The notes under the pieces: model-generated
Databases searched by the model: none
What the model saw: only the letters and a program-made list of their open reading frames with translations
Told to the model about the DNA's origin: nothing
Shown: positions 1 to 46,792 of the stretch, in pieces
Layout of the letters: every line of letters starts with the position of its first letter
Numbering within the stretch: the stretch's first letter is position 1
Source of the DNA: a virus
Strand: one strand, 5' to 3'
Length of the DNA: 46,792 nt
IMG/VR virus record: IMGVR_UViG_3300045988_109821
Location: 1-46,792 of that record
Position numbers and translations under genes: made by a program

Positions 1-119
1 ATTTTTTTTTCAAATTTGATTTTGATATTTTTTTTAATTATATAAATATATTATTGTAATTATATAATATAACTGTATAATGAAAACCAATTAAACAAAA
101 TACGACAAAAAATCGTAAA
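1..119. repeat. Left copy of a direct terminal repeat (identical to 46674-46792). True length is at least 119 bp because the window edge truncates it.
   Basis: Exact sequence identity between the first and last 119 nt of the window. Confidence 0.9.
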
Positions 120-499: not shown

Positions 500-1009
500 A
501 TGACAGAACAGGAACTAGATGCCATCTTTGGTACCAGTGCTTTATTTGATAAGGATTCTTCAGAATATAAGGAAGCAAACATATATTCGAGTATTGAGAA
601 AGAGAAAAGGAAACTCACTTTAGAGGACCCTTTATCTGTAGCACTATCTCAGGCTACACATTTAGATGACAATAAGAAAGAAAGATATAACTATTTAGCC
701 AGTCTGTATACAGCTGACATGGCGAAGAATATATTTAAGAATCAGTTTGATTTAGCTGAGAAGTATAGTAATACTACAGTTGATGAGTGGAATGACTTTT
801 TAGCTGATAGAATCGTAAGTGTATATATACAGAAGCACAAAAGAACACTTTTAAAAGCTGCAGCTGAGGATAACTTAGCCAACCCCACAGCTAAAAATAA
901 GCGTGATAACTTACAACTTATTAAGAATCTAGAGGAACAAGAGCAGCTAGAGAATAATAGAAACATATGTATTATAAGAATACCTGATATCTATGACGAT
1001 GCCTCATAG
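500..1009 (+). CDS. Hypothetical protein, possible terminase small subunit (first gene of the packaging module, upstream of terL).
   Basis: 169-aa ORF starting at ATG 500 with a GGTGA RBS. Called by position only, no recognisable motif. Confidence 0.35.
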   Translation: MTEQELDAIFGTSALFDKDSSEYKEANIYSSIEKEKRKLTLEDPLSVALSQATHLDDNKKERYNYLASLYTADMAKNIFKNQFDLAEKYSNTTVDEWNDFLADRIVSVYIQKHKRTLLKAAAEDNLANPTAKNKRDNLQLIKNLEEQEQLENNRNICIIRIPDIYDDAS

Positions 1010-1499
1010 GTAGCATAGAGTATATAATCAACAGACAGAAGTTATCAGGACGTCAGCATTATAGCCACAGCTTTGGAAACTATAATGTGAAACACTATGT
1101 GAGATTACATATTCTATGGTGCCTATAAGGTGCCAGGTAAAGCCACTTTTTCATTTACTTTAGTGCTACCCTCGTAGGTAGCATAGATTAGATATTCCAT
1201 ATTAACTATGGTCGATTAAAAAGTTGGTGAAAGTCCAGGTAATATCTATTCTATGGTGCTTATAAGGCACTAGAACTGATTTATTAGATTAGTTCTTCAA
1301 ATATTTTAAAGTGTTTGTTTATTCCCTATTGGTACGGGAATGAACTATCTCTAGTAGATAGTGATACTGAATAATAAAGGAACGCAATTAGACGTATTCT
1401 AATTAAAGGTAACTCAGACGAACATATTTTATTGAACTCGAGATAACAATAAAAACAATTCTAGGGAGAGAAGTGACGAAAGATTTTATTATTTAGTAT

Positions 1500-1521
1500 C
1501 AGTATCTATTAAGGATACTAA
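1500..1521. repeat. 22-bp element CAGTATCTATTAAGGATACTAA, which contains the palindrome AGTATC...GATACT. This is copy 1.
   Basis: Exact second copy at 1893-1914. Confidence 0.7.
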
Positions 1522-1892
1522 CAGGAGTTGTAAATAAATATTTTCCTGTTCCATATAGTTTACTTTTAGTAGTAACTATATTGTTTGATGTTTTTATATG
1601 TAACGCCAATTACATATAAAGAAATGCCTAGAAATAGTGGAGTAGCTTATACGCTGTATTTGTTATTCGAGATTGTTATATAACAATTGCATTACCTTTA
1701 ACAGGTAGTGTCTAGTGATATATAAATTGGGTATGCTGGGAAATGAAAGGGTGCAATATTAATTAAAAACTTGCAAGATTGATTAATATTCCTAGTGAAG
1801 AAATATAGGTTTGCAATCGACCAAATATTTAATCATGACTAATGAAGTAAGAATTGCTATATTAGTATGTAAAAAGCCTTTATATCATTAGA

Positions 1893-1914
1893 CAGTATCT
1901 ATTAAGGATACTAA
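1893..1914. repeat. Copy 2 of the 22-bp palindromic element.
   Basis: Identical to 1500-1521. Confidence 0.7.
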
Positions 1915-2067
1915 AATCTCCAATCTAATTATATACTGCTTTTTAGCAGTATGCTGACACTGAATTATACTTAAAACTTTTTAACCATCCTTATTTTAAA
2001 GCTATTTGTAATAGTTCGTTCAAAAACCATTTTGGTGTCAGCATAGTGTTAAAAAGGAGGTGAAACT

Positions 2068-2271
2068 GTGGAAAAGTTATCGGAAGATAAGACTTTTTTA
2101 GTATACAAATGTCCATGTTGTGGAGTTGGTAAGATTACTATTAATAAAACAAGTAATCATAAGTATGGTTATTGTGACACATGTGATGCAGCTTACATAC
2201 ATTATGTTCCATTACCTCATCAATTAGCTATGCACAAAGATAAACATAAGATAAAATTACAAATTGGAGGT
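2068..2271 (+). CDS. terL: Terminase large subunit, exon 1. It has an N-terminal CxxC...CxxC zinc ribbon and ends in ...KLQIGG, the first half of a GGxGS(A)KS Walker A motif. Translation may instead start at ATG 2230.
   Basis: GTG start after an AAGGAGG RBS. The ORF stops at TAA 2272-2274, immediately after a U that pairs with an intron guide sequence. Joining to 2951 gives QIGG-MGSAKS. Confidence 0.6.
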
Positions 2272-2950
2272 TAAATGCCCCTAGCCTCATAATTGGGTGA
2301 ATTGCTGGAAAACCTAGGGATAGGCAATCAGCAGCCAAGCTATTTAGGGATAAATAGAAGGTTCAACGACTAGTAGCATACCACTAGAACAGTGATGAAG
2401 CTGCCACGAGTGCCCAACACAAAAATGTGAAGATATAGTCTAAACTGTAACAATAATCCTTGACACAACACCCTACTTCCTATATAATTAGGGTAGGAGG
2501 TGTTGTAAATGAATAATGATAGTATTTGGATACTAATGAATGAAATAGGAAATAAGCCAATAAAAGGTCAATATTTTATATCTGATAAAGGTGAAGTTTA
2601 CAGTACTTTTACAAGAAAAATACTTAAACCTCAAACAGACCATAAAGGATATCAGTATATAGAAATTGGTAGTAAAAAATTTAAAATACATAGACTTGTT
2701 GGTAAATATTTTATACCTAATCCAAATAATTTACCCCAAATTAATCATATCGATTTGAATAAGGCAAATAATCATAAAGAAAATTTAGAGTGGGTTTCTA
2801 ATAGAGAAAATTATGAGTATTCCTTAAAAATGGGAACTTTTAGCAAATCTTTTTTAGAATATAAAGGGAATCCTAAAAAAATTTGGGAAAAACATTATGA
2901 AAAGAAATTACAGAACTAAAGGATAAAGAGCCTTTAGGTTAATATTATTG
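2272..2950 (+). mobile_element. Group I self-splicing intron carrying an HNH homing endonuclease ORF.
   Basis: P-like GAATTGCTGGAAAA (2299-2312); Q-like AATCAGCAGCC (2326-2336); R-like GTTCAACGACTAGT (2361-2374); S-like AAGATATAGTC (2430-2440); P7 pairing GACUA/UAGUC. The 5' exon ends ...GGAGGU (2266-2271), which pairs with GCCUC (2284-2288). The intron ends with G 2950. Confidence 0.7.
2509..2919 (+). CDS. HNH homing endonuclease (NUMOD4-like N-terminal domain plus HNH_3), intron-encoded.
   Basis: Motifs HRLVGKYFIPNP...INHIDLNKANNHKENLEWVSNREN. RBS GGTAGGAGG. Confidence 0.85.
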   Translation: MNNDSIWILMNEIGNKPIKGQYFISDKGEVYSTFTRKILKPQTDHKGYQYIEIGSKKFKIHRLVGKYFIPNPNNLPQINHIDLNKANNHKENLEWVSNRENYEYSLKMGTFSKSFLEYKGNPKKIWEKHYEKKLQN

Positions 2951-3664
2951 ATGGGCTCAGCTAAATCAAACTCAAGTGTTATGGAGATTATAAACCATGC
3001 ACTTACTGTACCATATGGGCAGACAATTATGTTAGCACAAACCCTAAAGCAACTTTCTAAGGCAATTATGCCTATTTTTGATGAATATTTACCACGTAAA
3101 TTTGTGGAAAAGTGGACTGATACTAAAGCTGAAATTGAAATAGTCCTTACTAATGGACACAAAATAACAGGATTTGCCAGTGATGATGAAGAAAAGTTTC
3201 GTTCTATGAATATAACAGCTTTCTATATAGAAGAAGCATCAGGTATAAGTCCTAAAATCTACCAGGAGTGTGTTAGACGTTTAAGAAACACACATGGTAT
3301 TATAGATGGTGTTGAACACTTTGTTGGTATTATATGTTCAAACCCAGCTCAAGGACCTATAAGAGATTTACTGTTTACAGCAGACCACATAGAAGGAAGT
3401 AAGTCTATTGCAGAAACTGTAAAAATGTATGAGAAGAGAATTACAAATAGAAACCCAGATTTGGCTGCATTTCTATCTAGTAGTAGAGATAATCCTTACT
3501 TACCACCTGGATTTGTACAATCTGTTGTAAATTCACTAACTCCAGAACAAGTAAGACTTTATGTAGACTGTATTATAGAGTATGCAGAGGGTGCTGTTTA
3601 TCCTGATATATTAAGTCATACATGTGAGCCATTTCCAATACCAGATGATTGGACTAGATATATT
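2951..3664 (+). CDS. terL: Terminase large subunit, exon 2 (ATPase domain; GSAKS Walker A remainder and AFYIEEAS Walker B-like). The 3' boundary is uncertain, somewhere in 3664-3679.
   Basis: Reading frame is open from 2927, with no start codon context of its own. It is continuous in frame with exon 1 after intron removal. Confidence 0.6.
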
Positions 3665-4637
3665 GCACATGACCCTGGTGAACATATAAAAATGTGCTAT
3701 ATTTAGTTTGTAATATAAGGAAATAATCTTTACATTATCCTGTGTATATGTTAAAATTATACCAGGGAGATGATAGAATGTTAGAAAATTATTTAATAAC
3801 TAAAGAAGGATTCATAATATCTTACAAAAATAAAGAACCTAGAGTGCTTAAAGGACAACTTGATAGAGATGGTTATTATAGGGTTGAAATAAGAGAAAAT
3901 AAAAAACGTAAATGGTGCTATTTACATAGGTTAGTAGCTATGCAGTATATACCTAATCCTGAAAATAAACCTGAAGTCAACCATATAAACGGAATAAAAA
4001 CTGATAACAGAGTTGAAAATTTAGAATGGGTTACGAGAAGTGAAAACGCAAAACATGCTGTTTTAAATGATATGTGTAAACAACCCAAAAAAGTTAATCA
4101 GTACAACACAAATGGTGAATTTATCAGACAATGGAATAGTATAAAAGAAGCTAAAAAGTGTCTAAATATAAAAAATGCACATATAAGTCAAGTCTGTCAG
4201 GGGCAAAGAAAAACAGCAGGTGGTTATATTTGGAGATATGATACTAATAAATCAAAATTAAATAAAGAAAAGGTTAGAGAAATAAGAGAAAATAAAGAGA
4301 ATCTTAACCGAGTCGCTTTAGCAAAGAAATATGGGGTATCATGCAGTTGTATACAACATATTCGTAGAGGAAGAACTTGGAAAGATGTAATGCCAGGTGA
4401 GTTTGGTGACAAACTCTAAGAAAACCGAAGAAAAAAACTGGAAGGCTAAGTCAGAAATGATATGCTAATCAGAGGTGAAGGACTTACTAAGTAAGCCCAG
4501 CCACAACGCATAGGAACTGAAAAGATATAATGTTCCCACGAGGCTTCGGCTCTCAGTCTTGCTGAGATGAAAAGATATGCTGGACTTATAGGAAACTATA
4601 AGAAGTAGAGGATAAAAAGCCTTTACGTTAACAAACG
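3665..4637 (+). mobile_element. Second intervening sequence in terL, a putative group I intron with a 5'-located HNH endonuclease ORF. Boundaries are approximate.
   Basis: The terL frame is interrupted. The region 4420-4640 is non-coding and structured, with Q/R/S-like elements (AATCAGAGG, CCACAACGCATAGGAAC, AAGATATAATGTTCC). The 9-nt ATGACCCTG occurs in frame at both 3669-3677 and 4642-4650. Confidence 0.45.
3742..4419 (+). CDS. HNH homing endonuclease (NUMOD4 plus HNH_3 plus C-terminal DNA-binding module).
   Basis: Motifs HRLVAMQYIPNP...VNHINGIKTDNRVENLEWVTRSEN. The C-terminal NAHISQVCQG motif is shared with the HNH at 37258-37836. Confidence 0.85.
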   Translation: MYMLKLYQGDDRMLENYLITKEGFIISYKNKEPRVLKGQLDRDGYYRVEIRENKKRKWCYLHRLVAMQYIPNPENKPEVNHINGIKTDNRVENLEWVTRSENAKHAVLNDMCKQPKKVNQYNTNGEFIRQWNSIKEAKKCLNIKNAHISQVCQGQRKTAGGYIWRYDTNKSKLNKEKVREIRENKENLNRVALAKKYGVSCSCIQHIRRGRTWKDVMPGEFGDKL

Positions 4638-5306
4638 ATTAATGACCCTGCAGCTATTTTATTAGGAGCACAAGACCCAAATACAGGTATAATCTATTTC
4701 TATAGAGAATATTATAAGACAAATCAGGTGCTAGCACAGGTTGCTCCTGAGTTTAAGAAAATGATAAGTGATATACCACAGGGTTGCTTGCATATGCCCC
4801 TTATAGACCCATCTGCAGATAAGAGAAGTAAGACAACAGGTCGTACATATAAACAACAACTACAACTTGAACATGGTATAGTGACAAAATGTGCTATAAA
4901 TAATATTGAGGATGGTATTCAGAGGGTTAAAAATATGATGTATGCAGGTTTACTTGTATTCTTTAATAACTTGACATACACTTTACGTGAGGGTTGTGAG
5001 TATAGATATCCTACACAAGAAGAAAGAAATAAGAATAAAAATCTAGGTGAGAAGCCTATAGATAAGAATAACCACTTAATGGACTGTTTAAGATATATTT
5101 GTCAAGAAGTCCCTTATGACTATATAGATATGAAACGTGTTGCATATTCAAATTACATAGAATTTTTTGATAAGCAAAGAAGAGGAAGTGCAGACATAAA
5201 GAAATCATTGTCTTTTAGGGAAATAATTGATATAATAAATAGGGATAATATAGAAGAGAGCATGAACACAAGACAGTGTTGTGCGGGAGGTTATAGTATA
5301 TGCTAA
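4638..5306 (+). CDS. terL: Terminase large subunit, exon 3 (RNaseH-like nuclease domain). The 5' boundary is uncertain, somewhere in 4638-4651.
   Basis: The frame opens at 4632 with (I)NDPAAILLGAQDPNTGIIYFY, and contains NHLMDCLRY (a typical terminase nuclease-domain motif). No start codon or RBS of its own. Confidence 0.6.
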   Translation: MNDPAAILLGAQDPNTGIIYFYREYYKTNQVLAQVAPEFKKMISDIPQGCLHMPLIDPSADKRSKTTGRTYKQQLQLEHGIVTKCAINNIEDGIQRVKNMMYAGLLVFFNNLTYTLREGCEYRYPTQEERNKNKNLGEKPIDKNNHLMDCLRYICQEVPYDYIDMKRVAYSNYIEFFDKQRRGSADIKKSLSFREIIDIINRDNIEESMNTRQCCAGGYSIC

Positions 5307-5470
5307 AATTTTTTAGAAAGTTAAAATGGTTGATTAAAAATCAAGACAAGATTGAAAAATTATTACAAACTACAGAAAAGAAAAAAGACACAAAAAATTA
5401 TTCGATACTAGGTGTTCCTAATTATCAATTAGACTATATTAATGATATTTTAGAAACAGATAAGAAGTAG
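5300..5470 (+). CDS. Small hypothetical protein (56 aa) between terL and portal.
   Basis: ATG overlaps the terL stop (ATGCTAA). The ORF fills the gap exactly. It is below the cutoff of the ORF track. Confidence 0.35.
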   Translation: MLKFFRKLKWLIKNQDKIEKLLQTTEKKKDTKNYSILGVPNYQLDYINDILETDKK

Positions 5471-5484
5471 AAAGGTGATGAAAT

Positions 5485-7476
5485 ATGGAAGAAGAAAACA
5501 AATTAGAACAACAGTTAATTAAACTTATTAATGAGGCTGTTGACTTCAGAAGTAGCAACAGAGATGAAGAATATCTTACAAATATGGCACATTATGAAGG
5601 TTTGCAATGGAATCTAGCTGAAAATAAAGATAATTCTCCATTTATGTTAAAAAGTGACATAAACCACTTAAAAAATGCTGTTGATTTACGATTGGGCAGC
5701 TTATTTGCGGAAAGCTACTATGGTGAATTAGAACCTTTAAGTCCAAATGACATAGAATCTATAAATACTTTAAATAATTTGTATAGAAATGAATGGTCTA
5801 GACTTAATGCAGATGATAGAGTTGAAGCAGCCATAAAAAACGGATGCTTACAAGACAATGGTTACACCGAAATAACATTTGACGAAGGTGCTATCTTTGG
5901 TGGAACAGGAACTCGTAGAGAAGGTTCTATAGTTCTTAGGGATTTGAGTACAAGTAATGTATATTTAGACCCAAAAGCTGAAAACATTGATGAGTGTGAA
6001 TATATTGTAGTAAAATCTCAAAAGTCAAAGAACTGGATAAAGAGAAATAGACCTGATTGGTTAGATAAAATAAAAGAGAGACAAATTAAACCTGCTGGTT
6101 ATACTAGTAATGATAATGGAAACATCTATATAGGACGTGATTATACAAAAAGTTCTGCTGAAGAGTATACTCTTGATACAGTATATAGAAAATATGTAGA
6201 AGATATGGACATTGACGTTATTGATGATAATGGAAATCCTGTCATTATTGATAAGGAAACAGGCGAAACACAAAAAGAAACAATTAAAGTAACACGTATA
6301 AAAGTACATTACTTAATTTCTGATATGCTTTTAGACACAGATGAAGACTATCCATTTGATGAATTCCCTATAATTCCATTTCAATGGCAACCTATTCCAC
6401 AAAGTCCATATGGTATACCTCTAATAAGAGGACTTACTACTCCTCAAAAAGTAGCCAACTTAATTGAAAGTGCTGCTAATAATGTTGCTATGCACTACTC
6501 AACACCTACATGGATAGTAAGTGAAGAAAGTGGACTCGATATTAATAAAGTTGCAAAACTTGCTAATGCTGTTGGTATGGTATGGAAAGTATCTGGGGAT
6601 GCTTCAAAAGCTATTAAGCAAATGGATTATCCAGATGTAAATGAACAATTAATAGGTATTAAGAATAGCTTTGTTGATAATATTCAGACTTATTCAGGTA
6701 TTTCACAAACTTACATAGGTAATATAGGAACAGCAGGTTCAACAGCAGAAGGTACTAATACAGCTGTTAATAGAGCCACTGTTATAGATAATCCTGTTCT
6801 TAAACAAATTGAGAAATATGTTGAGAAATTATCTCGCATGATTATTAGATTTATGACTAGATATTATAAAAATCAAACAATCTATATAAGAGATACTAAA
6901 AAGACTGAACAAGGTGAATATACATTTAAGCAATTTTTCATGAAAGATACTTATGAAAATATTAATTATGATTTTACAGTTAAATTAGCTGGACGTAGTA
7001 AATCTGATAAGAATAGACAATATAACTTAATGAAAGATTTATATACTATTCAAAATCAATATAAAGATGCAAATAGAGTTATTAACATACCTGATTTAGT
7101 TAAAGCTGCTCAATTAGACAACTACGATGAAATGTTTAAGAGATTTAGTGATATGACAGAAGAAGCATTTAATGAAAAAGCTGATATGATTGTTCAAATT
7201 ATGAATATAGGTGGTACAATTACACCAAATGGGCAACCTCTAATAACAGCAGAAGAAATGCAACAAGGTATCATAGATGTATTAAATGATGATGGTGACC
7301 TAACAACTGTTGAAAATATCTTTAATACATATAAAGAATATCAAACACAAATCACAGAAATGAAGAATGCTTTAGCTGCACAAGGACAACAAAAAGCTAT
7401 TAATAATGTAAATGCACAAAACAATGCTTTAGAAGGACAACTTACAGAACGTCTACAATCTATAAATAACAATTAA
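5485..7476 (+). CDS. Probable portal protein (663 aa).
   Basis: Size and position directly after terL; RBS AAAGGTGATG. No motif-level proof. Confidence 0.5.
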   Translation: MEEENKLEQQLIKLINEAVDFRSSNRDEEYLTNMAHYEGLQWNLAENKDNSPFMLKSDINHLKNAVDLRLGSLFAESYYGELEPLSPNDIESINTLNNLYRNEWSRLNADDRVEAAIKNGCLQDNGYTEITFDEGAIFGGTGTRREGSIVLRDLSTSNVYLDPKAENIDECEYIVVKSQKSKNWIKRNRPDWLDKIKERQIKPAGYTSNDNGNIYIGRDYTKSSAEEYTLDTVYRKYVEDMDIDVIDDNGNPVIIDKETGETQKETIKVTRIKVHYLISDMLLDTDEDYPFDEFPIIPFQWQPIPQSPYGIPLIRGLTTPQKVANLIESAANNVAMHYSTPTWIVSEESGLDINKVAKLANAVGMVWKVSGDASKAIKQMDYPDVNEQLIGIKNSFVDNIQTYSGISQTYIGNIGTAGSTAEGTNTAVNRATVIDNPVLKQIEKYVEKLSRMIIRFMTRYYKNQTIYIRDTKKTEQGEYTFKQFFMKDTYENINYDFTVKLAGRSKSDKNRQYNLMKDLYTIQNQYKDANRVINIPDLVKAAQLDNYDEMFKRFSDMTEEAFNEKADMIVQIMNIGGTITPNGQPLITAEEMQQGIIDVLNDDGDLTTVENIFNTYKEYQTQITEMKNALAAQGQQKAINNVNAQNNALEGQLTERLQSINNN

Positions 7477-46673: not shown

Positions 46674-46792
46674 ATTTTTTTTTCAAATTTGATTTTGATA
46701 TTTTTTTTAATTATATAAATATATTATTGTAATTATATAATATAACTGTATAATGAAAACCAATTAAACAAAATACGACAAAAAATCGTAAA
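46674..46792. repeat. Right copy of the direct terminal repeat (or circular-assembly overlap).
   Basis: Identical to 1-119. Confidence 0.9.

What the first reader, a model, noticed from the sequence alone, without database searches (positions are those of the whole stretch)
2068..5306. Terminase large subunit split into three exons by two inserts that each carry an HNH homing endonuclease
The ATPase and nuclease motifs of one TerL are spread over three ORFs with no independent start signals. These are 2068-2271, 2951-~3664 and ~4638-5306. They are separated by two inserts, and each insert contains an HNH endonuclease gene (2509-2919 and 3742-4419). The first insert splits the Walker A motif. 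The second splits the catalytic DP motif of the nuclease domain. Self-splicing introns typically home into exactly such conserved sites. Packaging therefore depends on two RNA splicing events.
Basis: partly seen in the sequence, partly recalled or inferred. Interest (0 to 1): 0.75.

Follow-up and report, generated by a model that had tools for sequence, protein, structure and literature searches.

The report
Phage terminase gene with two introns
The DNA-packaging enzyme gene of this uncultured 46.7-kb phage is interrupted by two self-splicing group I introns, each carrying its own homing-endonuclease gene; this is a well-supported but ordinary example of a known kind of selfish element.

Summary
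A near-identical relative (L001, about 95% nt identity) encodes the same 533-aa large terminase as one uninterrupted ORF. Aligning it to the window fixes the inserts exactly: intron 1 = 2272-2950 (679 nt), intron 2 = 3680-4637 (958 nt). Both follow a U and end in G.

Intron 1 matches Rfam Intron_gpI at 65.6 bits (cut-off 50), but only when searched in a short stretch. Intron 2 has no Rfam match. I built a P1-P9.2 group I fold for it by hand. On five relatives, 91% of pair cells are paired and 32 of 61 pairs show compensatory changes. P1 and P10 also covary with the exon sequence in relatives.

Each intron holds an intact HNH_3 endonuclease gene with a promoter-like site. HNH1 sits in the P9 loop. 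HNH2 sits in the P1 loop, and its last codons form the internal guide sequence and P2.

Related phages carry these introns in some genomes only, and some also have an intein. The exons differ from intronless alleles almost only at synonymous sites.

Terminase genes split by two or three group I introns are already published (Bastillevirinae). This is therefore a new member of a known kind. Splicing itself is inferred, not shown.

The parts
2068..2271 (+). TerL exon 1: GTG start with AAGGAGG Shine-Dalgarno, zinc-ribbon N-terminus, first half of Walker A (..QIGG)
   Evidence: Colinear with the uninterrupted ORF of L001 3635-3838.
2272..2950 (+). Intron 1: group I, IA-like, 679 nt. Follows U2271 and ends in G2950.
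   Evidence: Boundaries come from the nt alignment to intronless L001. Rfam Intron_gpI scores 65.6 bits, E 8.8e-17, at 2262-2453. RNAalifold on 4 homologues recovers P1 (U.G), P3-P8 and P7.1, with 12 compensatory pairs.
2284..2288 (+). Intron 1 internal guide sequence GCCUC, pairing with exon GAGGU 2267-2271 (U2271.G2284 wobble)
2460..2488 (+). Perfect sigma-70 consensus TTGACA-17-TATAAT inside intron 1, upstream of HNH1
   Evidence: the only 12/12 match in 900-5500. The same motif stands in front of the ORF in L008, and a close variant in L020.
2509..2919 (+). HNH homing endonuclease 1 (136 aa; NUMOD4 + HNH_3), in the loop of P9 (CUGUAA 2445-2450 / UUACAG 2908-2913)
   Evidence: Pfam. It is 66-83% identical to the 136-aa ORFs of site-1 introns in L008, L018 and L020. 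P9 covaries: L018 CUGUAG/CUACAG, L020 CUGCAA/UUGCAG.
2916..2937 (+). Intron 1 terminal hairpin (P9.2-like) CUAAAGG-AUAAAGAG-CCUUUAG. The same element is in intron 2 at 4605-4626.
   Evidence: R1 hit 2823-2950, 27.4 bits
2951..3679 (+). TerL exon 2: rest of Walker A (MGSAKS), ATPase domain, start of nuclease domain (..AHDPG)
3680..4637 (+). Intron 2: group I, IA-like, 958 nt. Follows U3679 and ends in G4637.
   Evidence: Boundaries come from L001.
3729..3757 (+). Promoter-like site TTTACA-17-TAAAAT (TG-extended) upstream of HNH2
   Evidence: 10/12. The homologous position in L027 is TTGACA-17-TATAAT.
3778..4419 (+). HNH homing endonuclease 2 (213 aa from ATG 3778; HNH_3, NUMOD1, I-HmuI NUMOD-like), lying in the loop of P1. 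Its last 10 codons are the guide sequence and P2.
   Evidence: Pfam. It is 44% identical to the L021 intron HNH and 34% to the L014 intron HNH. The SD AGGGAG at 3764-3769 is read.
4388..4397 (+). Intron 2 internal guide sequence. UAAU (4388-4391) pairs with 3' exon AUUA 4638-4641 (P10). GCCAGG (4392-4397) pairs with 5' exon CCUGGU 3674-3679 (P1, U3679.G4392).
   Evidence: Read from the sequence. It covaries with the exon in L027/L031 (CCGGGU/GCCCGG), L026 (CGGGU/GCCCG) and L028 (P10 AUACAU/AUGUAU).
4397..4637 (+). Intron 2 ribozyme core:
- P2 4399-4416
- P3 4425-4430 / 4544-4549
- P4 4438-4441 / 4469-4472
- P5 4444-4446 / 4464-4466
- P6 4474-4476 / 4500-4502
- P6a 4480-4498
- P7 4508-4512 / 4576-4580
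- P7.1 4513-4517 / 4532-4536
- P8 4551-4567
- P9 4585-4602 (GAAA loop)
- P9.2 4605-4626
   Evidence: Model R1 scores 264.7 bits here. Independent family members score 155-256 bits in TerL relatives, and 70-85 bits in Staphylococcus and Clostridium phage introns.
4638..5306 (+). TerL exon 3: nuclease domain (INDPAAILL... NNHLMDC ...)

Best explanation
One large-terminase (TerL) gene is interrupted by two mobile group I introns of the phage-typical IA kind.

**Splicing (inferred).** The gene is transcribed as a single pre-mRNA. Each intron folds into a ribozyme whose guide sequence pairs with the end of the upstream exon (P1, with a U.G wobble) and with the start of the downstream exon (P10). 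Two transesterifications, started by a free guanosine and finished at the terminal G, then join 2271 to 2951 and 3679 to 4638. The result is an mRNA for a 533-aa TerL. Without both events the Walker A loop and the first nuclease motif stay broken, so DNA packaging needs both.

**Homing (inferred).** Each intron also carries an HNH homing endonuclease with its own promoter-like site. In a mixed infection the enzyme should nick or cut intronless TerL alleles near the insertion site, and repair from the intron-bearing copy spreads the intron.

**Shown here:**
- exact boundaries;
- U at -1 and a terminal G in both introns;
- the ribozyme folds, by Rfam for intron 1 and by covariation for both;
- intact HNH domains;
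- presence/absence polymorphism among relatives;
- purifying selection on the exons.

**Inferred:** splicing activity, endonuclease activity and target, and promoter use.
For: 1. **Uninterrupted allele.** P0001 is a 533-aa contiguous ORF 99.6% identical to the conceptual splice product. Its contig L001 is about 95% identical to the window and lacks exactly 2272-2950 and 3680-4637. L013 shows the same pattern.
2. **Splice-site bases.** The intronless alleles read GGG|ATG and CCA GGA|ATT. The window reads GGT|...G|ATG and CCT GGT|...G|ATT, so U stands at -1 and G at the intron 3' end in both introns.
3. **Intron 1 fold.** Rfam Intron_gpI scores 65.6 bits against a cut-off of 50. RNAalifold on 4 homologues gives P1 with U.G, plus P3-P8 and P7.1, with 12 compensatory pairs.
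4. **Intron 2 fold.** It has 61 pairs in P2-P9.2, including the P3/P7 pseudoknot. 91.3% of cells are paired, against 35-46% when partners are slid. 32 pairs show double changes, and 0 of 500 shuffles reach the observed values.
5. **Intron 2 family.** Members not used to build model R1 score 155-256 bits. A family member in phiCP13O also hits Intron_gpI at E 3.5e-7. The intron 1 core hits R1 at E 5e-4.
6. **P1 and P10 of intron 2 covary with exon sequence** in L026, L027, L028 and L031.
7. **Endonuclease genes.** HNH_3 is above the Pfam cut-off in both ORFs. HNH1 keeps its 136-aa length at 66-83% identity in four genomes.
8. **Selection on exons.** Against L001, 34 differing codons are synonymous and 2 are not. 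Against L013 the counts are 51 and 5.
9. **Published precedent.** TerL genes with two or three group I introns are described, with splicing shown by cDNA for phage SIOphi (PMC11878797). Terminases are listed as typical intron targets (PMC3984707).
Against: - No RNA evidence for ligated exons exists for this phage.
- Rfam's curated model does not detect intron 2 at all. It misses intron 1 unless the search is restricted to about 270 nt (against 6).
- The intron 2 structure was derived partly from the sequences on which it was then counted. The alignment has only five rows, and L008 is close to the window in P4-P6.
- P6a of the window carries one A.C mismatch.
- P4 and P5 of intron 2 are unusually short (4 and 3 bp).
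- Endonuclease activity and target are untested.
- Overall, promoter-like sites are no more frequent than in shuffles (24 against 26.7). Only the 12/12 site stands out.
Confidence: 0.9

Rival explanations
1. A genuinely split, multi-chain terminase. Three polypeptides are translated separately and assemble, with free-standing HNH genes lying between them.
For: Gene callers on related contigs do report separate fragments of about 319 aa and about 464 aa. Exon 2 happens to begin with ATG.
Against: - There is no Shine-Dalgarno before 2951. There is no start codon near 4638; the first is a GTG 30 codons in.
- The breaks fall inside the P-loop and inside the first nuclease motif.
- Both spacers fold as group I ribozymes with U.G and terminal G.
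- Precise intronless alleles exist at about 95% nt identity.
- No split-intein sequence is present at the fragment ends.
Confidence: 0.02
2. The introns, or one of them, are decayed and no longer splice. The window would then be a defective phage genome with a TerL pseudogene.
For: There is no expression data. Intron 2 is not recognised by Rfam. P6a has one A.C mismatch. Relatives show stages of endonuclease-gene decay (L008, L024, L026, L031).
Against: - All core helices, the guide sequence, U.G and the terminal G are intact.
- Exons show 34 synonymous against 2 non-synonymous codon differences from the intronless allele, and identical length.
- The contig closes on itself with a 119-nt overlap, as a complete 46,673-bp genome.
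- Both endonuclease ORFs are full length.
Confidence: 0.05
3. The inserts are removed at the protein level (inteins) or skipped by the ribosome (translational bypass), not by RNA splicing.
For: Relatives of this TerL do carry a true intein at a third site, DKNNH|C.
Against: Both inserts have in-frame stops at or soon after the junction: TAA at 2272-2274 and TAG at 3704-3706. They contain independent ORFs in other frames and have no intein blocks. At 679 and 958 nt they are far beyond known bypass gaps.
Confidence: 0.005

Closest known systems
Group I introns in terminase large subunit genes of Bastillevirinae Bacillus phages such as SIOphi (NAR 2025, PMC11878797)
   Same: - The same host gene class.
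- Two or three introns per TerL are reported.
- The introns are mostly IA-like, and most have the ribozyme interrupted by a loop encoding an HNH or other homing nuclease.
- Rfam hits are often partial or absent on one side of the ORF.
- Splicing was shown by cDNA for SIOphi TerL.
   Different: - The phage lineage is different. Here it is an uncultured ~46.7-kb phage of 29.7% GC. Its TerL is only 33-34% identical to the nearest cultured phages, Paenibacillus phages API480 and SV21.
- The TerL family is different (PBSX/Terminase_3 with a zinc-ribbon N-terminus).
- The insertion sites are different.
- No experimental splicing data exist here.
Phage T4 td intron with I-TevI (subgroup IA2; from my own knowledge of the literature)
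   Same: - A group I intron in an essential phage gene, with the endonuclease ORF looped out of the ribozyme.
- The ORF has its own promoter.
- A hairpin can hide its ribosome-binding site in read-through transcripts. The intron 1 hairpin 2465-2506 folds at -17.8 kcal/mol, z = -2.5. A transcript starting after the internal promoter is unstructured.
   Different: - I-TevI is a GIY-YIG enzyme placed in P6a. Here the enzymes are HNH_3, placed in the loops of P9 and P1.
- The regulatory parallel is inferred from a fold prediction only.
Bacillus phage SPO1/SP82 DNA polymerase introns encoding I-HmuI/I-HmuII (from my own knowledge; the Pfam family PF22083 is named after I-HmuI)
   Same: An HNH_3-type intron endonuclease with NUMOD-like DNA-binding modules. 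HNH2 matches PF22083 at E 1.7e-7.
   Different: The host gene is different. Nicking activity and target are not tested here.
Unannotated introns in tail tape-measure genes of Clostridium phages phiCP13O and phiCD211 and Staphylococcus phages 6ec and PT1-1
   Same: The 3' 70 nt of intron 2 (4565-4635) is 82-93% identical to these. Whole cores score 70-85 bits with model R1. In phiCP13O the element ends exactly at the start of the downstream tape-measure fragment.
   Different: The host genes and guide sequences are different. PT1-1 carries a GIY-YIG-like ORF instead of an HNH ORF.

Membership tests
Group I intron (intron 1, 2272-2950) | Match to the curated covariance model Rfam RF00028 at or above its gathering score | tested here: met
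   65.6 bits against 50, E 8.8e-17, full model 1-253 at 2262-2453. It was missed in the whole-window and 3.5-kb scans, apparently by the speed filters.
Group I intron (intron 1) | P1 with a U.G wobble at the 5' splice site, and G as the last intron base | tested here: met
   GAGGU|UA pairs with UAGCCUC, with U2271.G2284. G2950 precedes exon 2. The intronless allele has G instead of U at -1.
Group I intron (intron 2, 3680-4637) | Match to Rfam RF00028 | tested here: not met
   No Intron_gpI hit at E<=10 in 1900-5400, 4405-4665 or 3655-3790. A family member in phiCP13O reaches 33.7 bits, E 3.5e-7, which is below the gathering score.
Group I intron (intron 2) | Conserved core: P3-P4-P5-P6 and P7-P3'-P8-P7' with the P3/P7 pseudoknot, supported by covariation | tested here: met
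   On 5 sequences, 91.3% of cells are paired and 32 of 61 pairs show compensatory change. P3 has 4 of 6 pairs with double changes and P7.1 has 4 of 5. P7 is invariant (GCAUA/UAUGC). The J8/7 sequence AAAAGAUAU is present.
Group I intron (intron 2) | Guide sequence forming P1 (U.G at the splice site) and P10, and a terminal G | tested here: met
   P1 is CCUGGU/GCCAGG with U3679.G4392. P10 is AUUA/UAAU. G4637 is the last base. Both helices covary with exon changes in L026, L027, L028 and L031.
Group I intron (both) | Guanosine-initiated self-splicing | not testable with these tools
   Needs an in vitro transcription and splicing assay, or RNA-seq.
Subgroup IA (Michel-Westhof classification, from my own knowledge) | Extra helix or helices (P7.1/P7.2) between P7 and P3' | tested here: met
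   Intron 2 has GGAAC/GUUCC, which covaries (GGAUU/AAUCC, GGAAA/UUUCC, GUGGG/CCCAC). Intron 1 has GUAGC/GCUGC with an inner hairpin. Assignment to IA2 against IA3 was not tested; no GISSD models were available.
HNH homing endonuclease (HNH_3 / I-HmuI-like) | HNH_3 domain above the Pfam cut-off, with DNA-binding NUMOD modules | tested here: met
   ORF1: HNH_3 26.6 bits (cut-off 24.8) and NUMOD4 27.7 (23.4). ORF2: HNH_3 51.4, I-HmuI_NUMOD-like 31.1 (27) and NUMOD1 25.9 (22.8).
HNH homing endonuclease | Cleaves or nicks the intronless allele near the insertion site and promotes homing | not testable with these tools
   Only indirect support. There is presence/absence polymorphism at identical sites, and silent differences flank the sites.
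Phage terminase large subunit (PBSX/Terminase_3 type) | N-terminal ATPase with a Walker A loop, and a C-terminal RNase H-like nuclease | tested here: met
   Terminase_3 scores 45.4 bits (cut-off 23.2). Terminase_3C scores 17.8 bits, below its cut-off. The nuclease region aligns to the P22 (4dkw) and G20c (5oea) terminases at E 0.002-0.009. A portal gene follows at 5485-7476.

The most novel reading that the evidence does not exclude
In intron 2 the endonuclease gene and the ribozyme are physically interlocked. The ORF fills the 712-nt loop of P1. Its last ten codons (V-M-P-G-E-F-G-D-K-L) are themselves the P10/P1 guide sequence and P2.

Its Shine-Dalgarno region (ACCAGGG 3761-3767) is complementary to the 5' splice-site exon sequence CCCUGGU. 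The predicted read-through fold is -25.3 kcal/mol, z = -2.4.

If this matters, ribosomes finishing the endonuclease ORF would unfold the guide sequence. Pairing of the splice site with the SD would also block both P1 and translation. Terminase splicing and endonuclease synthesis would then be mutually exclusive and timed by the internal promoter.

Homologous endonuclease genes occupy three different loops (P1, P2, P8) of homologous ribozymes, at two insertion sites 3 nt apart. This would then record repeated re-engineering of that coupling.
Probability: 0.2. Interest if true: 0.45.

Novelty: new member of a known kind. Interest (0 to 1): 0.28.

Why it matters
- **Annotation.** Gene callers split this TerL into fragments. 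In public protein collections the family appears as ~319-aa and ~464-aa 'proteins'. The standard Rfam scan of the whole contig reports nothing, so introns of this family go unseen in gut-phage metagenomes.
- **A worked example.** The locus gives exact junctions, a covariation-supported model for an intron family that Rfam misses, and a natural series of homing-cycle stages: empty site, intron with endonuclease gene, intron with decayed gene.
- **Limits.** It does not change what is known about group I introns or about terminases.

Tried and rejected
1. **Rfam scans.** The whole window at gathering threshold and 1900-5400 at E<=10 gave no intron hit. Only a ~270-nt window recovered intron 1. 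Intron 2 was never recovered.
2. **First guess for P7 of intron 2.** I tried CCAGC 4496-4500 / GCUGG 4579-4583. I dropped it because MT835481 has no complementary 5' strand. By analogy with the classical R/S elements, P7 is GCAUA/UAUGC.
3. **ACCAGGG (3761-3767) as the guide sequence.** I rejected this for three reasons. It gives U-A rather than U.G. It is deleted in L024, the ORF-less derivative that keeps GCCAGG. And GCCAGG/GCCCGG covaries with the exon and is preceded by the P10 partner.
4. **The 9-nt direct repeat ATGACCCTG at both ends of insert 2.** I considered it as a target duplication or an alternative junction giving HDPAAILL. The intronless alleles read HDPGINDPAA, so the repeat is two DP dipeptides.
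5. **A conserved 'anti-P1' element.** L027 has ACCCGG complementary to its exon, but at a different, non-homologous position. CCGG is palindromic, and L031 has a mismatch there. I judged this not established.
6. **Pattern scans for more P1-loop-ORF introns.** Scans of viral and JGI metagenome contigs returned only unrelated genes that share the coding motif WKDVMP or a chance match.
7. **Intein, translational bypass, group II intron, split-intein 'fractured gene'.** All were excluded by in-frame stops, the size of the inserts, and the absence of the relevant motifs.


Full report
**1. What is in the sequence**

Between 2068 and 5306 the + strand carries five ORFs:
- a 68-aa ORF (2068-2274) with a GTG start behind AAGGAGG; it has a four-cysteine N-terminus and ends ..KLQIGG;
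- a 136-aa ORF (2509-2919);
- an ORF beginning MGSAKS at 2951 and running to 3706;
- an ORF at 3742-4419;
- an open frame from 4632 to 5306.

Joining 2068-2271, 2951-3679 and 4638-5306 gives 533 aa. This product matches Pfam Terminase_3 at E 8.8e-12 over residues 59-260, so the match crosses the first junction. It matches Terminase_3C weakly over 313-465.

Both internal ORFs pass the curated cut-off for HNH_3. The first also has NUMOD4. The second also has NUMOD1 and the I-HmuI NUMOD-like domain. A P22/SU10-type portal gene follows at 5485-7476.

**2. The three pieces are one gene, and the boundaries are exact**

A search of public proteins returned P0001, a 533-aa contiguous ORF that differs from the conceptual product at two residues. 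Its contig, L001, is about 95% identical to the window in DNA. It aligns as three adjoining blocks that omit exactly window 2272-2950 and 3680-4637. A second near-identical genome, L013, is also uninterrupted.

The junction sequences compare as follows:

| | junction 1 | junction 2 |
|---|---|---|
| intronless allele (L001) | GGA GGG \| ATG GGC | CCA GGA \| ATT AAT |
| window | GGA GGT \| 679 nt ending in G \| ATG GGC | CCT GGT \| 958 nt ending in G \| ATT AAT |

Both inserts therefore follow a U and end in a G, as group I introns require. The intronless alleles lack that U.

Across the 1602 nt of joined exons, the window differs from L001 at 34 synonymous and 2 non-synonymous codons. Against L013 the counts are 51 and 5. 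All three exons are thus under purifying selection as one reading frame.

**3. Intron 1 (2272-2950)**

Rfam found nothing in the whole window at gathering threshold, and nothing in 1900-5400 with relaxed thresholds. When only 2255-2520 was searched, Intron_gpI matched 2262-2453 over the full model at 65.6 bits (cut-off 50, E 8.8e-17). The earlier misses look like an effect of the speed filters.

Homologous introns sit at the same codon boundary in L008, L018 and L020. RNAalifold on the four 5' cores independently predicts these helices, with 12 pairs kept through double changes:
- P1: exon GAGGU plus intron UA against UAGCCUC, with the U.G wobble at the splice site;
- P3, P4, P5, P6, P7.1 and P8.

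P9 is CUGUAA (2445-2450) against UUACAG (2908-2913). It covaries in L018 (CUGUAG/CUACAG) and L020 (CUGCAA/UUGCAG), so the endonuclease ORF lies in the P9 loop.

In front of the ORF stands the only perfect TTGACA-17-TATAAT in 900-5500, at 2460-2488. L008 has the same motif and L020 a close variant. In a read-through transcript, the Shine-Dalgarno sequence of the ORF is predicted to pair with 2465-2472 (-17.8 kcal/mol, z = -2.5). A transcript that begins after the promoter is unstructured. This resembles what is known for I-TevI in T4, but here it is only an inference.

The ORF is 136 aa in all four genomes, at 66-83% identity.

**4. Intron 2 (3680-4637)**

Rfam gives no match here. BLAST showed that its last 70 nt (4565-4635) are 82-93% identical to unannotated stretches in many phages of Firmicutes. 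In phiCP13O that stretch ends exactly where the downstream fragment of a split tape-measure gene begins.

Relatives of this TerL carry a homologous core in several forms:
- L008: a 283-nt ORF-less version;
- L014 and L021: versions carrying an ORF.

From these I derived a group I fold (full coordinates are in the parts list). It comprises P2, P3, short P4 and P5, P6/P6a, P7 (GCAUA/UAUGC), P7.1, P8, P9 with a GAAA loop, and a terminal hairpin at 4605-4626. That hairpin also occurs in intron 1 at 2916-2937.

I counted this fold on a MAFFT alignment of five sequences:

| measure | result |
|---|---|
| pair cells forming standard pairs | 91.3% |
| same, with 3' partners slid by 1-3 columns | 35-46% |
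| pairs with changes on both sides | 32 of 61 |
| shuffles reaching any observed measure | 0 of 500 |

P3 changes from CCGAAG/CUUCGG to UCGGAG/CUCCGA, UCGCUG/CAGCGA and UCGCCGA/UCGGCGA. Two caveats apply. The alignment is small, and the structure was derived from these same sequences.

A covariance model built from this alignment (R1, with P7 omitted) gave these scores on sequences it had not seen:

| sequence | R1 score (bits) |
|---|---|
| TerL introns L024, L027, L021, L026 | 256, 242, 235, 210 |
| TerL intron L028 (two pieces, split by its ORF) | 155 + 87 |
| Staphylococcus phage PT1-1 intron | 85 |
| Clostridium phage phiCP13O intron | 70 |

The phiCP13O intron also matches Rfam Intron_gpI at E 3.5e-7. 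The core of intron 1 matches R1 at E 5e-4. Both results tie this family to classical group I introns. R1 with filters off found no further copy in the window.

**5. Guide sequence of intron 2 and position of its endonuclease gene**

GCCAGG (4392-4397) pairs with the exon end CCUGGU (3674-3679), with U3679.G4392. The four bases before it, UAAU, pair with the first bases of exon 3, AUUA.

Relatives at the same insertion site show that both helices follow the exons:

| locus | P1 (exon / guide) | P10 (exon / guide) |
|---|---|---|
| window | CCUGGU / GCCAGG | AUUA / UAAU |
| L024 | CCUGGU / GCCAGG | AUUA / UAGU |
| L028 | CCUGGU / GCCAGG | AUACAU / AUGUAU |
| L027 | CCGGGU / GCCCGG | AUU / AAU |
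| L031 | CCGGGU / GCCCGG | AUCAA / UUGAU |
| L026 | CGGGU / GCCCG | AUAA / UUAU |

In the window and in L027 the guide sequence lies after the endonuclease ORF. The ORF (probable start ATG 3778, SD AGGGAG, promoter-like TTTACA-17-TAAAAT at 3729-3757) therefore occupies the loop of P1. Its last ten codons are the guide sequence and P2.

L024 and L031 are the same intron with most of the ORF deleted. In L021 a homologous ORF (44% identity) sits in the P2 loop. In L014 and L028 one (L014's is 34% identical) sits in the P8 loop. The L008, L014 and L021 introns are inserted 3 nt upstream, at DP|G.

**6. Where the introns sit in the protein**

- Junction 1 is GG|MGSAKS, inside the Walker A loop.
- Junction 2 is AHDPG|INDPAA.
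- Weak but consistent alignments to solved terminase nuclease domains (P22 4dkw at E 0.002, G20c 5oea at E 0.009) place HDPGINDP on QDFGWNHP and CDYGTQNP. This is the first beta-strand, which carries a catalytic Asp in those enzymes by my knowledge of that literature.

**7. Distribution among relatives**

Among the 100 closest cluster representatives:

| form of the called protein | count |
|---|---|
| full length, crossing both junctions | about 60 |
| start at MGSAKS (insert at site 1) | 18 |
| stop within 5-17 residues after HDP or HDPG (insert at site 2) | 19 |
| intein after DKNNH\|C | 3 |

L008 has two introns and the intein in one gene. This presence/absence pattern, together with the stages of ORF decay, is what the homing cycle of mobile introns predicts.

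**8. Comparison with what is known**

Terminases are listed among the usual targets of phage group I introns (PMC3984707). A 2025 survey of Bastillevirinae found TerL genes split by two or three group I introns. These were mostly IA-like, most carried a nuclease-encoding loop, and splicing was confirmed by cDNA for SIOphi TerL. That survey also noted that covariance models often find only part of such introns (PMC11878797).

The present locus is a new member of that kind in a different, uncultured phage. The nearest cultured TerL is 33-34% identical, in Paenibacillus phages API480 and SV21.

The interlocking of the second endonuclease ORF with the guide sequence, and the complementarity between its SD region (ACCAGGG 3761-3767) and the 5' splice site, are the only features that might be of more than routine interest. 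I could not show that they are functional.

**9. Verdict**

Confidence is 0.9 that these are two functional, or very recently functional, mobile group I introns. Novelty is low and interest about 0.28. Splicing, endonuclease activity and promoter use remain to be shown experimentally.

Noticed in passing
window 1010-2067: About 1 kb between the 178-aa ORF (473-1009) and the TerL start has no ORF of 40 aa or more on either strand, and no Rfam hit at E<=1. It holds several direct repeats: 1002-1029/1170-1197, 1110-1130/1247-1267, and an exact 22-mer at 1500-1521/1893-1914. The intronless relative L001 has only 467 nt here. In other relatives the spacer ranges from about 3 nt (L011) to 1.9 kb with a NUMOD1 ORF (L021). 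It looks like a variable hotspot.
   Followed up: partly
window 1344-1512: An element of about 170 nt is bounded by 33-nt inverted repeats (1346-1378 / 1485-1517). It folds into one long stem (-43.3 kcal/mol, z = -5.4). A 96% identical copy lies directly upstream of TerL in pig-gut phage contigs L021 and L022, whose flanking TerL DNA is only about 77% identical. There is no match in cultured phages. It could be a small mobile element or a structured RNA; this is unexplained.
   Followed up: partly
L008 4217-5214; proteins P0048, P0054, P0063: Relatives of this TerL carry an intein inserted after DKNNH|C, beside the last nuclease motif (NNHLMDC in the window). L008 combines two group I introns and the intein in one TerL gene.
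   Followed up: partly
window 1-119 and 46674-46792: There is an exact 119-nt terminal overlap. The window is a circularly closed assembly of a 46,673-bp genome of 29.7% GC.
   Followed up: yes
window 3761-3767 and 3673-3679: ACCAGGG overlaps the Shine-Dalgarno sequence of HNH2 and is perfectly complementary to the 5' splice-site exon sequence CCCUGGU. The predicted read-through fold is -25.3 kcal/mol, z = -2.4. I did not find it conserved at a homologous position in L027 or L031.
   Followed up: partly
L004 (phiCD211) 2380-2640 and 2649-2914: In the phiCD211 tape-measure region, a relative of intron 2 lies immediately upstream of a second, separately annotated Intron_gpI. These may be two tandem introns separated by a very short exon.
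   Followed up: no
window 20704-20780: A single tRNA-Cys (GCA) gene.
   Followed up: no
window 2262-2453 (method note): A 65.6-bit Intron_gpI match, above the gathering score, was not reported when the whole window or a 3.5-kb stretch was scanned. It appeared only in a 266-nt scan. Negative Rfam scans of long phage contigs are therefore weak evidence against group I introns.
   Followed up: yes
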